From Phycisphaerae bacterium (lineage in GTDB: Bacteria > Planctomycetota > Phycisphaerae > UBA1845), in assembly GCA_963666835.2 (NCBI GenBank), contig CAXXGO010000001.1:32001-96000 (forward strand): 64,000 nt of DNA, written 5' to 3'. A program made the position numbers. How positions within the stretch are numbered: position 1 is the first letter of the stretch; each line of letters starts with the position of its first letter. This document shows positions 15,001 to 30,000 of the stretch, in pieces.

Positions 15001-18000
15001 AAAGTTGCCCCTGCGGCGGCGCCGGCGTCCCGCGATCCTAACGAAGACCGTACTGAGCGAGTAGCCGACAAGCCCAAAAAGAAGAAGAAGAGCAGCCGCC
15101 GTCGGGGCGGGCGAAAGAAGGGGCGTTAGTCTCGCAGGCAGCGAGGACGAGACTGCCGGCGTCGTATGTTGGCGCCGTTGACAATAGCAGGCGAGGGCCA
15201 TTGAGCCACAGTAAGACCACCCCTGATGTGGGGTGTAGTAAGAGGAGAGGTTGCCATGAACGCACGGCCGAATGACTCAATCCAGCAAACGCTACGTCGT
15301 CTCGGCGTGGGGCTGGCGGTTGTCGTGTTTGGCTTGTCGGCCGCGGTCGGTTATGCGCAGTCTCCGCCGCCGAGCGGAAACGAAAAGACCAACAAGAAGG
15401 CGCCAGGGGCTAAAGAGACTCCGGGCGACAAGACTCCGAGCAGCAAGAGGGCTTCGAGCCCCAGGCGGGCTCCGAAAGCCAAGGAGGACGCCGGCGATAA
15501 GAAACCGTCTCGACGTACGAAGCCTCCGAGTGACAAGAAGACGAGCGATTCCGACGAAAAAGCCGCGGACGGTTCGAAATCCGCCGAGGAAGAAGACTCC
15601 AAGAGTAGCCGACCGGCGCAGCGGACCCACCGTCGTCCCGCCGGTGAGGAGAAAGAAGACACCAAAGAGTCTGATCCGAAAGAGCCGAGCCCGACCGGCC
15701 CGAAGAAGGTCGAGGAGAAGCCGGAGATAGACGCCGACCTGCGGCGACAGGTCGATGCCTTGATAGACTCTCCACCGGAGGATGCCGAGGATTCCGAGAA
15801 GCCTGAACCGCGGAGTCGCGGGTCGAAGCGGGTGAGTCCCTCCGAGGTGGGTCTGGTCAAGCCGGGTATGGGTACGACCACTACAGGCCCTAGACCCGGT
15901 ACGGAAGGGCCGGAACCGAAGGGTCCGACCACGACGCTGGACATTCCGGCACGCGAGGCGAGTGTGCCGGCCGAAGAGCGCACCTACTGGTTCAGCATCA
16001 AGGACGGCAGTTACGAGCAGTTGGTGGAGGGAATCGCCCGTGAGACCGGGTTGGGCGTAATGGGGGAGAGCCCCAAGGACGGGAAGGTCACCTTCGTGAC
16101 CGAAGAGGAGCTTACGTTCGACCAGTTGATCAAGCGCGTTCAGATGGTGCTGTTCAACTACAAGCCGCACGATCCTTACTGGCTCCTGCGCGAAGACACT
16201 CATTTGGAAGTCATTCGGATTACTGACTACTACCGGCGGCTCCCACGGGAGCGGATGTATCCCAGCATTGAAGAGTATCGGGCGGCGAATCTACCCAAGG
16301 ACGAACTGGCCCTGGTGCTCTACACTCCCCAGGCCGGTTCCATCGCGGATCTGACCGTGATTCGCGACTTCATGCCCGACTACGTTCGGGTGACTCCGCT
16401 TGAAGAGCGCAATACGGTCAGCATCTTTGCGTTGTCGCGCGATATTGAAAAGTACATGGACCTGATCCCCATCTTTGTAGGGGACAACGACGATCCGCGG
16501 ACGTTGGAGCTGATTGACGTTGAGCACATCCTCGCCAGCGAGGCGTTGGAGAAGCTGCGCACGTTGATGGACCTGGAGGCGAGCGGCGCGGCGCGGCCCG
16601 CGCCTCGGCCCAAGGCACGCGGGGCGAGCCCTCTTACCGGAGCGGAAGCGCCGGAAGTCAGCGTCGTTCCGGATGATGCCCGCGGGGTGATTATCGTTCG
16701 GGCCATGCCGGACAAGATCCGCGAAATCAAACAGCTGTTGCCATACTTGGATGTGGATACGACGCGAAGCTACGACCCGGTAGTGATTAAGGTCGTACAC
16801 ACAGAGCCGACCGAGCTGGTCGCGACGATTCAGCAGTTGCTAAGCGCGGCGGAGCCGGCTGCCCAGCCGGGGACGCCGACGAGCAAGACGACAACGCGGA
16901 GACGCGACCGGAAGTCGAAGGGTAGCCGACGGGGATCGTCCGGGGCTTCCTCGGTAGTGCTGGACGAGATAACGCTAATGCCGCATCCCAGTGCCCGAGC
17001 GATTATTGTCATGGCTTCGCAGGACGATGTCGTCCGGGTTCGCCATTTTGTGGAGATGTTTGACGTCGAGGACGGCGTCCACAACCACTCCATTGCTCTG
17101 GAGTACATCGACGCCGAAGAGGTGGTTGCGACCATCACCGAGCTGATGGCGGCCGGGACGGCCGGGACGGACACTTTCACGCTGGTGCCGGACCCGAAAG
17201 GGCGGAACATGTGGTTCAGCGGCAGCGAGCACCTTCTGGCCCAGATTGAGGAGATCGTGGCGGCGGTCGACACGGCTGACGACGTCGTGACGCTGCACAT
17301 CCACCATCTGGTCAACCGGACCCCGTCGTTCGTGGTCGGGATCCTCGAGCAGATGGAGAACACCGGAGCGACGGCGACAGGGGGCAAGGCCAATAGGCCG
17401 ACCCGTCGGCGGGGAAGCAGAAAGGCCCCCAAGGCGACGCCGCAAGCGACGCCGGGCAGCAAGTTCACTGCGGACGATGAGCAGGGGCAGCTCTTCGTGC
17501 TTTGTACTGAGCAGGAGTGGGAGGAGTACCTGGTCATAATCGAGCAGCTCGAGAGTGAGACGATCAGCGAGGTGCCGGTGCTGATCACGGTGGAGAACCT
17601 GACTCCGGACGAGGCGATCAACAAGCTGGGGACGCTCTTGAGCGATCAACAGCTTGCCAAAATGCGCTTCGAGACGACCGAAGCCGAGATTATCGTCATG
17701 GGGGCGAGCGAATTGGACTTGGCCTCGATTCGGAGCCTGCTGGCGGAACTGGATCGCCCGCTGGACATCGTGCAACGCACCTTTGAGATCCTCTATGCGG
17801 ATCCTGCGGAGCTGGTCTCGGCGTTGAACACGCTGGTCAGCGATGAAGCAGGCGGCAACTCCGCCGCCAAGCCGGGCCCGCCGCGTAAGGGCGCAAGGGC
17901 GACGCGTCCGGTAGCTTCTCGGGCAAGCTCGTCCGAACTGACGATTGTGGAGCTCGGTAAGTTCCTGATTGTGCGGACTACCCCGGAGAAGATGGAACGC

Positions 18001-27000: not shown

Positions 27001-30000
27001 CGTCGAACCGGGAGGATTTCGAAGAGATCAAGAAGCTGGTCGAGACGCTCGAGAAGCGGCCCTTGATCGACGATACCCGCCTGTTCAACCTCGAGCACAC
27101 CGATGCCATTGTTCTGGCAGAGATGCTCGATGAACTGTTCCAGGGCATGGAAGGCACTACGGAGGCGTTCAAAGCTCCGACCATTATCCCCGACGCACGC
27201 TCCAACGCTCTGGTGGTCGCAGCGACCCGGGACAGTATGGAGCGGGTGGAGGAGATCGTCGCCCGGCTCGACGTCGAAGCCGGGCCCATGACCGCGATCT
27301 TCAAGGTGTATCCGCTCAAGCACGGCTCGGCGAACAAGCTGGCTATGCGCATGCAGGAGCTGTTCGACTCTCGCGCCGAAGGGCAGGAGTTGAACCGCAC
27401 GCCGATCGTCGTCCTGGCGGATGAGTCGTCGAACAGCCTGGTGACCAGCGCTTCGCGCGACGATCACCGGGTGATGGCGGACCTGCTCAGTCTGCTGGAT
27501 CGCCCGTCCAGTATCGCCCGGCAGTTCGAGATCTTCCCGCTGAAGCTGGCCAGGGCTACGTCGGTCAAGGAACGTCTCGATACCCTGTTCGAGGCGCAAG
27601 CGGAAGGGACCGAGGGCAGCGCCGTGGCGATCGCCGCAGAGGCGGACGAGCGTACGAACTCGATCATCGTGTGGGCCTCGCCGGCGGAGATGGAGAACGT
27701 CGGGGAGGTCATCGGGCGGTTGGATAAGGCAAAGCCGGTCCGGGAGATGGCCGTCAGACTTATCCAGCTCAAGCAGGCGCTCGCCGAAGATTTCGCCACG
27801 CTGCTCGAAGAGTCCATCATCGGGGAGAACGCCGGCGAAGACGATGAGCCGGCCGTGATTCTGAAGCAGAAGTACACTGACAAGCACGGCAACCAGGCCG
27901 AACGCACGCTGCTTCGACAGGACATCTCGGTCAAGGCGGACCCGCGGACCAACTCACTGCTGGTTACCGCGCCGGCGGACAGCCTGGCCATGCTCGAGGA
28001 GATGATAAAAGACTTCGACCGGGTGAATCCGATTCGGTCGGAGATTCGCCTCTTCCCGCTGCTCAACAGCGACGCCGAGAGTATGGTCGATCAGCTCACC
28101 GACATTTTCAGCTCGGAGGGCGGCGAGGATGGGGAGACCAGGACCCAGTTGCTGTTCGGGGCGGGAATGGAGGATCTGGACTTCGCCAGCGTCGGGCAGG
28201 AGCTGCGCCTGGCGGCGGATCAAAGAACCAACACGCTTATCGCCGCCGGTGCGGAGGTCGACCTGCGCATGGTCGAGGACTTGGTGTATGCCCTCGATGC
28301 GCAGGAGGCGGAGGACCGGGTGGTGGAGGTCTACCACGCGAAGTTCCGCGATGGTCAGGATCTTTCCAACGCCATCCAGGGGTTCGTTCAGCAAGAGCAG
28401 GACGTGCTGGGCGAGCTAGACGACGAAGAGGCCCGGATGCGCCGCATGGAGCGGCAGGTTTCGGTCGAGAGTCTCGGCAACGAGGAGGACGGCAGCAGCA
28501 GCCTTATTGTCGGAATGAGCCGCCGCGAGCACCAACGCACGATGGAGATGATCGCCCAGCTCGATAGGCCGGAACCGCAGGTTATGATTCGCGTGTTGAT
28601 CGCCGAAGTGACTTTGAACGACAGTGCCGAGCTGGGAGTCGAGATCGCAGGGCAGGATTTGAACTTCTCCGACAGCGCCGTGCTCGGTCCCAACGGGATC
28701 GTGCAAGGACCGGACTTCGATTGGGTTGCGGGTACGGACTTGGGCTCGGCCGGGCTCGGTTTGGGTGGCTTCAACTTCACCCTGACCGGCGAGGACTTCA
28801 GTTTTCTGTTCCACGCTCTGCAGCAGAACAACCGGACGGAGATTCTGTCGCGGCCGCTGCTCGTCGTCCGCAACGGTGAGGAGGGTATGATCAAGGTCGC
28901 CGACGAAGTGCCGATTGTGGAATCCTCGCGATTGAGTGACACGGGGCAGACTCAGTCGACGATCGGGCGGGAAGACGTTGGTATCGTCCTGACGGCCACC
29001 CCGCACATCAGTCCGGACGGCTACGTTTCGATCCAGATCAAGCAGGAGATTTCGAACATTGCCGGTGAAGATGTGCAACTTACCGAGGGTGTAAGTTCGC
29101 CGATCTTCCAGTCGCGCGAGGTCGAGACCGACGTGACGGTCCGAGATGGTGAAACGGTGATCATTGGTGGGTTGATTCAGCACCGCAAGTCGGATGGGGA
29201 GAACAAGATCCCGATTCTCGGTGATCTGCCGCTGTTGGGCCCTCTGTTCCGTTCGACCAGTACGTCAGACGACCGGTCGGAGTTGATGGTCGTCCTGACG
29301 GTCGACATTCTGCGGACCGATGAGGATATGCACCGGATCTCCACCGAGCAGCGCGAAATGTACGATTTCAGTCCGTGGATGAGCCAGAGCCGGCTTATGG
29401 AAGGACTCCGGATCCTCCCGGAAGACACGAAGCTCGGCCCGACCGAGGATTCCCCGTCGAAAACCGAGCCGCGCTTACGCACTCGGCCGGATGAACGCCA
29501 ACTTTACGGTCCGAAGCCGCGGGTCTACGGCCCGACCATCAAGAGTCCGGCCGCCAAGACGAGTACGGCGAACGGTCCGGTCTACGGACCTGCGGTCAAA
29601 CGTTCGACGCGCGGTCCGGATGCGACTCCGCGGTCGGACTCACCGGCGCCCGTCAAGCAACCTCTGGCGTTGGCGGATACGGCGCTGGTGCCGGTTTTCG
29701 GTCCGGCTTGTCTGCAACCTCCGGAATCTAACGCGGAAGTCGAGCCGGTCTACGGTTCGACCCTGCGAAGCAGAACGGTAAAGCCCGTAATGGACGCTCC
29801 GCTGGAGTAAGGACGATGTCGACGGACAGGTTCCGATGTAGGCGTCAGGCCGTTTCCGTACTGACGCTGGCTGCGGTGGTTGTGATAGGAGGGTGTCAGT
29901 CACCGGGTGCCGGGGGCAGGGCGACGGCCGGCCGGAACACACCCGCCCGTGACCTGGTTCGCCGGGTACGGTGCGTTTACGATCAGAACCCCTGGATCAA

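What a model noticed while it worked through the whole genome (the two positions that open the first line are those of the whole stretch)
15256..29810. Type II secretion operon with a two-gene giant secretin carrying 36 ring-building (Secretin_N) domains
In the T2SS-like operon g00031-g00043 the secretin is split into two secreted proteins: g00039 (3,235 aa; signal peptide, Lys/Glu/Pro-rich spacer, an untyped ~170-aa domain, then 26 tandem Secretin_N-type ring-building domains, no beta-barrel) and g00041 (1,545 aa; own signal peptide, 10 such domains, then the Secretin barrel domain). Model T2SS/T3SS secretins have two to three of these domains, so the pair would stack an order of magnitude more periplasmic rings. 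The N-terminal part is kept in 90 of 100 other genomes of the order UBA1845 in open frames of mostly 2,600-5,500 aa, and other Phycisphaerae have single secretin frames of 4,490-5,073 aa, whereas the other Planctomycetota secretin [...]
Evidence so far: pfam.tsv: Secretin_N 9x in g00039, 8x plus Secretin in g00041; an HMM built from the 18 Secretin_N segments of the genome finds 26 and 10 full domains (plus one 28-aa fragment) and at most 3 in any other protein; N-termini, stop, 210-nt spacer and signal peptide of g00041; neighbours GspF, GspG, GspK, PilM-like; order search with residues 1-600 of g00039: 91 of 101 genomes with G000, open frames listed; no match to residues 1-1000 in 300 genomes drawn from the phylum under a stricter first look; Secretin family search in 150 genomes of the phylum: frames of 4,490, 4,754 and 5,073 aa in three other Phycisphaerae, all other listed frames <=1,353 aa. 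Papers: 'giant secretin' 18 hits, the 10 lis [...]
(Added by a program. Inside this text positions count along the whole contig: contig position 32,001 is position 1 of the stretch shown here. "Call 12" and the like, gene names such as g00115 and contig names such as C1 are that model's own, and its searches are not shown. The text may have been shortened before it was handed on; [...] marks where a part breaks off. The agent that wrote the report below was given it as the finding of a first reader that could run no searches.)

Follow-up and report, generated by a model that had tools for sequence, protein, structure and literature searches.

The report
Giant secretin built from snap-together pieces
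An uncultured planctomycete encodes its type II secretion pore with about 44 ring-forming domains instead of the usual three to six, split between genes in the middle of a domain, which suggests separate protein pieces that lock together into an unusually long tube across the cell envelope.

Summary
Confirmed and extended. Two intact genes in a gspF-M operon encode a barrel-less chain A (3,235 aa) and a barrel-bearing chain B (1,545 aa); an independent assembly has the same split. The strict count is 26+10 Secretin_N domains; with divergent and interrupted ones it is about 44, plus an N0-like domain. A ends in the first half of a domain and B starts with the second half. In the order, 30 of 49 junctions read are split and 19 are fused; fused ones carry an Arg-rich tail and an apolar, often signal-peptide-like, segment at that point. 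A holds a second such site, a conserved CVLP...G|Q helix inside another interrupted domain. In one family that site is a real gene boundary, giving three genes. Best reading: a three-piece secretin joined by half-domain complementation into a long periplasmic conduit. Ring stacking, binding and cleavage are inferred, not shown. I found no paper on it. This scan found the giant family, the mid-domain break and the junction signal peptide before on other DNA; the second site and three-gene form were not in the notes I saw.

The parts
5572..6774 (+). gspF, inner-membrane platform
   Evidence: TIGR02120 E 1.9e-96, 324 bits, under its cut-off of 424
6969..7430 (+). gspG major pseudopilin
   Evidence: TIGR01710 above cut-off; start chosen by RBS
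7489..10192 (+). three minor pseudopilin-like genes (gspH-like 7489-8442, unassigned 8442-9224 in the gspI position, gspJ-like 9221-10192)
   Evidence: weak GspH and GspJ / N_methyl hits; none for 8442-9224
10189..11949 (+). gspK-like
   Evidence: PF21687, PF03934, NF037980
11924..13543 (+). gspL / PilM-like
   Evidence: PF11104, TIGR01175, weak TIGR01709
13579..15129 (+). gspM-like protein with a PKD domain and a conserved C-terminal domain that may stand in for GspC-HR
   Evidence: PF10741 weak; profile match to GspC-HR only probability 11%, E 0.0026
15256..24963 (+). chain A: barrel-less, 3,235 aa, about 31 Secretin_N-type domains plus a terminal half-domain
15256..15357 (+). signal peptide of A, predicted cut G-Y-A|Q
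   Evidence: read from the sequence
15979..16482 (+). N0-like domain followed by an N1-like domain
   Evidence: ESM Atlas hits 0.92 to clusters with PF21305 (53% and 66% of members) and PF03958; no PDB sequence hit
19792..19902 (+). site 1: first half (beta1-alpha1 plus one strand) of an interrupted N domain
   Evidence: model secondary structure; alignment A4
19972..20034 (+). site 1: conserved amphipathic helix CVLP...A-T-G|Q, signal-peptide-like; a gene boundary in family f5
20035..20301 (+). site 1: acidic, unconserved spacer like those after true signal peptides
   Evidence: 8% pairwise identity in 12 f1 rows; pLDDT under 50
20302..20418 (+). site 1: second half (beta2-beta3-alpha2) of the interrupted domain
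24805..24873 (+). site 2: first half (beta1-alpha1) of an N domain at the end of A
   Evidence: hhalign probability 83%, E 8.8e-6 to the first half of the domain profile; aligned across 23 A ends
24874..24963 (+). Arg/Ser/Gly-rich tail of A and TAA stop
24964..25172 (+). 209-nt spacer, no terminator- or promoter-like match
25173..29810 (+). chain B: 1,545 aa, own signal peptide (25173-25289), half-domain, 12 N domains, secretin barrel, tail
25413..25520 (+). site 2: second half (beta2-beta3-alpha2) of the N domain at the start of mature B
   Evidence: hhalign probability 90%, E 1.8e-6 to the second half
28578..29315 (+). secretin beta-barrel domain
   Evidence: PF00263 E 3.9e-48; model matches GspD 5zdh E 1.1e-28
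29316..29807 (+). C-terminal tail with four [YF]GP motifs, in the place of the S domain
   Evidence: motif present in 28 of 29 tails
29816..30361 (+). conserved lipoprotein of no known family directly after the secretin; pilotin candidate
   Evidence: lipobox read from the sequence; tblastn hits in 51 fetched loci, some the same genome twice; no family
30395..31096 (+). second lipoprotein, less widely kept
   Evidence: 15 loci

Best explanation
This is the secretin of a T2SS-like machine, made of several chains. SHOWN: one ancestral giant secretin (N0, about 44 beta-alpha-beta-beta-alpha domains, barrel) is interrupted at two fixed points, both in the loop between helix 1 and strand 2 of a domain. 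At site 2 this genome has a gene boundary; 19 of 49 relatives have one frame with an Arg-rich tail, an apolar segment and a spacer there. At site 1 this genome has a conserved helix ending A-x-G|Q; family f5 has a gene boundary with a true signal peptide there. INFERRED: each piece is exported by Sec; B inserts its barrel in the outer membrane, probably helped by the downstream lipoprotein; A docks on the inner-membrane platform by N0; the pieces join end to end because each pair of half-domains refolds into one domain, once per subunit around the ring; the result is a conduit of roughly 130-175 nm if every domain makes one tier. LEAST SURE: the internal helices are cut by signal peptidase I, so A itself becomes two chains and the fused giants are polyproteins.
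For: Half-domain identity at both chain ends. The same domain is whole, with a 10-52 residue Arg/Gly loop, in distant giants such as P0004, P0006, P0012, P0023. In the model of A 1441-1871, 198 residues align to ExeD N1-N3, more than the two whole domains can supply, so the halves round site 1 fold together. Split in 30 of 49 genomes of the order, no family mixed; stops of all three kinds and all frame offsets, so no read-through. All 28 database giants with a confidently placed junction have a 94-375 aa insert, 20 of 28 with a 12-residue hydropathy of 1.6 or more (thresholds set by me after seeing the table). Site 1: CVLP 80% and whole helix 36% pairwise identity against 8% for the spacer; x-x-[AGS]-Q ends it in 10 of 12 f1 rows (one off register) against 13.5% of background windows; 30 of 47 true N-terminal signal peptides of these proteins end the same way. 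f5 has three genes in 2 of 2 genomes. Tree: two changes suffice, fused forms are not one clade (p-AU 0.006), split forms are not one clade (p-AU 0.043), so the same point was probably cut twice. Thermus PilQ sets the precedent that more N domains mean more rings and a longer complex (PMC5745081, passages).
Against: No ring, tube or cleavage was observed or modelled. The site 1 helix here is amphipathic (best 14-residue hydropathy 1.19, with K and D inside), not a canonical h-region, and nothing upstream stops translocation, so how signal peptidase would meet it is unexplained. Its end motif is missing in 6 of 20 aligned rows, the helix is unclear in f6 and absent in f13-type giants, and 8 of 28 junction inserts are only weakly apolar. 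A 150-nm periplasm has not been reported for this lineage in what I read; crateriform complexes of other planctomycetes are described as holding the two membranes close (PMC5394234, passages). gspE is not in the operon here and GspC is not identified. Deep tree nodes are weakly resolved and the split-clade rejection is marginal.
Confidence: 0.6

Rival explanations
1. A and B join, but the N domains do not form one tier each: they coil, fold back or form a flexible tether or cage, so the channel is much shorter than 150 nm, or only B's 12 domains form rings and A is a scaffold.
For: Domain number varies widely, about 20 to 77 by my HMM, which a fixed-width periplasm does not explain; N0-N2 are often disordered in solved secretins (PMC5745081); models have low pTM, 0.41-0.43.
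Against: Domains follow each other with short linkers like stacked GspD N domains; the three-domain model aligns with ExeD N1-N3; PilQ's six domains make six rings.
Confidence: 0.22
2. The internal signal-like segments are not cut. They are membrane-binding or Cys-linked anchor helices, or relics of re-fusion by stop-codon loss; A stays whole.
For: Amphipathic rather than hydrophobic at site 1; conserved Cys in CVLP; degenerate versions in f6; fused junctions look like tail + read-through + signal peptide; no upstream stop-transfer segment.
Against: The conserved end is the same [AG]|Q as true signal peptides of these proteins and is followed by the same kind of spacer; the tree favours fused-first with two fissions over several re-fusions; a neutral relic should decay like the spacer beside it (8% identity).
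Confidence: 0.45
3. The machine is not a protein exporter but a sheath for a long pilus or an uptake conduit for polyanions (DNA, sulfated polysaccharide), using Arg-rich lumen loops.
For: Loops between helix 1 and strand 2 are net positive in 20 of 27 domains of A (6 neutral, 1 negative) and negative in 12 of 12 of B; GspL is PilM-like; planctomycetes bind dextran on fibres.
Against: Best family and fold matches are T2SS GspD, PilQ model under its cut-off; GspG above cut-off and GspK-like present; the sharp charge switch is strongest in f1 and weak in f3, f9, f19, f20; that these loops face the lumen is recalled, not tested.
Confidence: 0.15
4. The split is an assembly error or a decaying gene.
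For: The genome is metagenome-derived; some relatives show frameshifts or stops elsewhere (G007, G033, L159).
Against: Same split in an independent assembly, in 30 genomes, B with its own RBS and signal peptide, mostly synonymous strain differences.
Confidence: 0.01

Closest known systems
T2SS secretin GspD / ExeD / EpsD / PulD / XcpQ (TIGR02517; PDB 5zdh, 6i1x, 5wq8, 6hcg, 5wq7, 5wln)
   Same: Secretin barrel, beta-alpha-beta-beta-alpha N domains, N0-like start, gsp operon context.
   Different: About 44 N domains against N1-N3 (recalled number; family mean 555 +/- 151 aa in PMC4827864); two or three chains; breaks inside a domain; internal signal-like helices; no recognised S domain, pilotin or GspC.
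Thermus thermophilus PilQ
   Same: Extra N domains give extra stacked rings to span a wide periplasm: six rings, 350 A (PMC5745081).
   Different: One 757-residue chain, type IV pilus / DNA uptake; here about seven times more domains, several chains, T2SS-type neighbours.
Bacterial precursors cut at an internal signal peptide, e.g. Bradyrhizobium FbcH (recalled; also named in an earlier scan note, not read)
   Same: One frame with an internal signal-peptide-like segment where relatives have a gene boundary.
   Different: There the upstream part is an inner-membrane protein that presents the signal in the right orientation; here both sides are periplasmic, and the two products would rejoin within one domain.

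Membership tests
T2SS secretin (GspD) | C-terminal secretin beta-barrel domain (PF00263) | tested here: met
   In B only: E 3.9e-48; model matches 5zdh E 1.1e-28. Absent from A.
T2SS secretin (GspD) | Tandem Secretin_N (KH-like) periplasmic domains | tested here: met
   22 + 10 Pfam stretches; fold match Z 9-10, rmsd 1.4-2.0 over 62-65 residues for single domains. Number far above GspD.
T2SS secretin (GspD) | N0 domain at the mature N-terminus | tested here: inconclusive
   No Pfam or PDB sequence hit in A; ESM feature hits 0.92 to N0-bearing clusters; PF21305 precomputed on some fused relatives. B has none.
T2SS secretin (GspD) | TIGR02517 score above cut-off | tested here: met
   A 591, B 532 against 351; scores are inflated by repeats.
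T2SS secretin (GspD) | N0, N domains and barrel on one polypeptide | tested here: not met
   Two genes here; one frame in 19 of 49 genomes of the order.
T2SS secretin (GspD) | Ring-shaped homo-oligomer in the outer membrane | not testable with these tools
   No tool models a 12-16-mer of this size.
Type II secretion system | GspF, GspG and minor pseudopilins, GspK, GspL, GspM in the locus | tested here: met
   only GspG passes its NCBIfam equivalog cut-off; order kept in relatives.
Type II secretion system | GspE ATPase | tested here: met
   Not in the operon; within 4.5 kb upstream of gspF in 6 of 8 relatives; 5 of those 6 have their best match, 59-71% identity, at C6:20420-22090 of this genome.
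Type II secretion system | GspC with HR domain | tested here: inconclusive
   C-terminal domain of the gspM-like gene: hhalign probability 11%, E 0.0026 to ten GspC-position proteins; no Pfam or PDB hit.
Type II secretion system | Pilotin and S domain | tested here: inconclusive
   Conserved downstream lipoprotein without family; [YF]GP tail.
Type IVa pilus secretin PilQ | TIGR02515 above cut-off; AMIN domains | tested here: not met
   257 (B) and 81 (A) against 284; no AMIN family listed.
Signal peptidase I substrate (internal site 1) | Small residues at -3 and -1 | tested here: met
   A-T-G|Q here; x-x-[AGS]-Q in 14 of 20 rows.
Signal peptidase I substrate (internal site 1) | Uncharged hydrophobic h-region | tested here: not met
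   Best 14-residue hydropathy 1.19 with K and D inside, against 12-residue values of 1.9-3.0 for true N-terminal signals.
Signal peptidase I substrate (internal site 1) | Cleavage in the cell | not testable with these tools
   Needs proteomics; the genome has an S26 peptidase, E 4.3e-43.

The most novel reading that the evidence does not exclude
Phycisphaerae build a secretion tube more than 130 nm long from a secretin polyprotein: signal peptidase cuts it at internal signal-like helices placed inside domains, and the three pieces re-join by half-domain complementation, so gene fission at those points is free and has happened repeatedly; the lumen runs from basic near the inner membrane to acidic near the pore.
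Probability: 0.25. Interest if true: 0.92.

Novelty: new variant of a known kind. Interest (0 to 1): 0.78.

Why it matters
The longest secretin I found described has six rings and 35 nm. About 44 domains would imply either a periplasmic tube several times longer than any known envelope-spanning secretin or a new way of packing these domains; both bear on the unsettled envelope architecture of Planctomycetota and Verrucomicrobiota. The half-domain joints offer a concrete answer to how a multi-megadalton channel is exported and assembled in parts, and they give exact, cheap tests (a two-fragment binding assay, two predicted neo-N-termini). Hundreds of such proteins sit in databases under generic names.

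Tried and rejected
Complex prediction of A's last domain and a half with B's first half and next domain: no verdict (score 0.15, mark 0.32, controls not folded); not used for or against. No RNA holder listed. Read-through or programmed frameshift between A and B: rejected, offsets 9/6/8 over three frames and stops 9 TAA, 8 TAG, 6 TGA in 23 boundaries. Internal translation start as the general explanation of the internal segments: no conserved start codon before them in 6 fused genes or at site 1; not excluded for single genes such as G027. The CVLP...GQ motif as a genome-wide processing signal: next best hit 11 bits, E 0.7, among 35,868 frames. Terminator or sigma-70 promoter in the spacer: none. 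Family or structure for the downstream lipoprotein and the gspM C-terminal domain: none. N0 by PDB sequence search: none. Earlier scan notes by sequence or place: none. Paper searches: 0 papers; 1; 16; 5; 2; 1; 10; 46, 30 listed; 6; none of the listings or passages I saw describes a giant, split or processed secretin in this phylum. The library lacks most subscription journals and I read no supplements, where such proteins could be tabulated. My scripts mislabelled three families (G032 is f9, G033 is f10, G031 is f8); the report uses the labels.

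
Full report
1. The observation. 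Two long frames lie on the + strand at 15226/15256-24963 and 25173-29810, in different frames and 209 nt apart. An AGGAGA before 15256 favours that start, so chain A has 3,235 aa; residue numbers below follow my translation from 15226 and are 10 higher unless stated. Pfam finds 22 Secretin_N stretches in A and 10 in B, and the Secretin barrel in B only. An HMM iterated on the two proteins finds 26 + 10 strong domains and 2 + 2 weak ones, and at most 3 in any other of 35,868 frames of the genome. Adding an N1-like domain at 358-419 (read by eye, faint HMM trace), a whole domain at 1450-1515 and an interrupted one at 1523-1731 gives 31 in A, 12 in B and one shared, about 44. Residues 250-350 resemble GspD N0 by language-model features (0.92) but not by sequence search. 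An AlphaFold model of B's last three domains and barrel (pLDDT 68.8, pTM 0.43) matches T2SS secretins best (5zdh E 1.1e-28). The split is real: run X3, from another sample and study than X1 (which may be the source), covers 15000-30500 in one contig with 34 substitutions and no indel, and 20 of 28 listed coding differences are synonymous.

2. Context. Upstream are gspF, gspG, three minor-pseudopilin-like genes, gspK, a PilM/GspL-like gene and a GspM-like gene with a PKD domain. The order is kept in relatives. gspE lies within 4.5 kb upstream of gspF in 6 of 8 relatives read; here the orthologue of five of those six is on another contig, C6:20420-22090. GspC was not identified (probability 11%). 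Two lipoproteins follow B; the first has hits in 51 fetched loci (some the same genome twice) and no family, so it is a pilotin candidate by position only.

3. The break is inside a domain. An earlier scan note (e1-5127396) said so for another genome; I tested it here. A ends with strand 1 and helix 1 of an N domain (24805-24873) and an Arg-rich tail; mature B begins with a spacer, then strands 2-3 and helix 2 (25413-25520). Profile comparison places the two ends on the first and second halves of the domain model (probability 83% and 90%). The same ends occur in all 23 A termini aligned. Of 49 genomes of the order whose junction I read, 30 are split (f1 22, f3 2, f5 2, f7 2, f8 1, f10 1) and 19 are one frame of about 3,450-5,030 aa (f2 9, f4 2, f6 7, f9 1); no family is mixed. 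Other genomes were not read at the junction. Stops and frame offsets vary freely over 23 boundaries, so there is no programmed read-through. In distant giants the domain is whole with a 10-52 residue Arg/Gly loop.

4. Signal-like segments at the joints. Fused orthologues in the order do not have a short loop: they have the Arg-rich tail, an apolar segment and a Thr/Gln/Pro spacer. In f2, f4 and f9 it reads like a signal peptide ending A-x-[AG]|Q; in f6 it is longer and degenerate. Among 120 listed database giants (27-50 domains, median 41), I could place the junction confidently in 28 (scores at least 95 and 60, set after seeing the table): all 28 have a 94-375 aa insert and 20 reach a 12-residue hydropathy of 1.6. 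Family f20 of another order has a similar insert in 4 of 4 genomes. I found this before seeing that note e1-4363569 had reported it. Chain A of this window holds a second site: at 19972-20034 a helix CVLP...A-T-G|Q followed by an acidic spacer sits in the same loop of another domain. In 12 f1 sequences CVLP is 80% and the helix 36% identical pairwise, the spacer 8%, a neighbouring whole domain 40%; x-x-[AGS]-Q closes it in 10 of 12 (one off register) and 14 of 20 rows overall, against 13.5% of background windows. True N-terminal signals of these proteins end the same way in 30 of 47. In f5 this point is a gene boundary with an ordinary signal peptide, giving three genes in 2 of 2 genomes (frames 1290+1254+1605 and 1355+1215+1605 aa). 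In the model of A 1441-1871 (pLDDT 73), 198 residues align to ExeD N1-N3 and alignments to XcpQ and GspD start at the first half-domain, so the halves close over the insert (indirect, as only ranges are given). Against processing: the site 1 helix is amphipathic (hydropathy 1.19), the end motif is missing in 6 of 20 rows, f6 has no clear helix and f13-type giants have only a spacer, and no stop-transfer segment precedes either site.

5. Order of events. A 25-row tree of the barrel and last domains needs two changes of state; f3 (split) groups with f4 (fused) at 93/96. Fused forms of the order are rejected as one clade (p-AU 0.006) and split forms marginally (0.043) (a quick 65-row tree, agrees in placing f2, f6, f9 outside the main split clade). 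The simplest history is a single frame with an internal segment, then fission twice at site 2 and once more at site 1 in f5. Deep nodes are open, so repeated re-fusion is less economical but not excluded.

6. How it most likely works. Shown: the anatomy above. From established knowledge: secretin N domains form stacked rings, and Thermus PilQ uses six of them, 350 A in all, to span a wide periplasm (PMC5745081, passages). Inferred: B forms the pore and the upper 12 tiers, A the lower ones with N0 at the inner-membrane platform, joined by refolding of the split domain in each subunit; at 3-4 nm a tier (my estimate from PilQ, barrel height recalled) that is 130-175 nm. The loops between helix 1 and strand 2 are net positive in 20 of 27 scored domains of A and negative in 12 of 12 of B; the switch is sharp in f1 and limited to the last few domains in f3, f9, f19 and f20. 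That they face the lumen is recalled from GspD, not tested. I put the multi-chain conduit at 0.6, a coiled or scaffold arrangement at about 0.2, a pilus-sheath or uptake role at about 0.15; separately, cleavage at the internal helices is roughly even odds. Planctomycetes have an enlarged, invaginated periplasm, but their crateriform complexes are described as holding the membranes close (PMC5394234, passages; Phycisphaerae and secretins not mentioned).

7. Range and literature. Databases name them only 'type II secretion system protein D' or 'secretin N-terminal domain-containing protein'. Nine paper searches gave no description. I read passages, not whole texts, of PMC4827864, PMC5745081, PMC5394234, PMC5287468 and bioRxiv 10.1101/2023.11.21.568195 (98); the last four's passages other than PilQ do not use the word secretin. 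No supplements were read, and subscription journals are mostly missing.

8. Verdict. A real, conserved, apparently undescribed variant of the T2SS secretin: it works like GspD by fold and context, but fails the single-chain criterion. New variant of a known kind; interest 0.78.

Noticed in passing
window 1652-4585 (+): 977-aa protein upstream of gspF with a lipobox-like start, Cys/Asp-rich repeats and a Thr/Gly-rich region with RTX calcium-binding repeats; S-layer- or adhesin-like, a possible substrate, but no hit in the relatives' loci.
   Followed up: partly
window 31473-33105 (-): Two adjacent DUF1670 genes right after the operon, probably part of a mobile element.
   Followed up: partly
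window 34938-36623 (-) and 33783-34778 (-): PKD-domain cyclophilin-type isomerase and a peptide release factor gene.
   Followed up: no
window 20500-20750 (+): Gln/Arg-rich helical loop in the domain after site 1, kept as a Gln-rich loop in most relatives.
   Followed up: no
L030 3052-19587 and L110 944-19450: Largest forms seen: G026 has 5,512 + 1,888 aa with 63 + 14 domains; G177 a single frame of 6,169 aa with 62. f20 has the shortest, about 2,550 aa with 21-22.
   Followed up: partly
L154 1-12589: A complete Phycisphaerales genome record shows a break at another position (open frame, then 3,030 aa with 29 domains and the barrel); junction not read.
   Followed up: no
L157, L168, L174, L176: The 2,000-2,300 aa secretins of Gemmataceae type carry a Gly/Arg-rich insert followed by a 'DFF' or 'LYDP' motif; one such locus is labelled Alcaligenaceae.
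   Followed up: no
L054 9747-9749 and L047 about 6560-6600: An in-frame stop in G007's chain A and a frameshift early in G033's chain B, probably assembly errors.
   Followed up: partly
G000 genome: Twelve T2SSE-family ATPase matches, six of full length, and three other frames with 1-3 N domains: several type IV filament systems.
   Followed up: no
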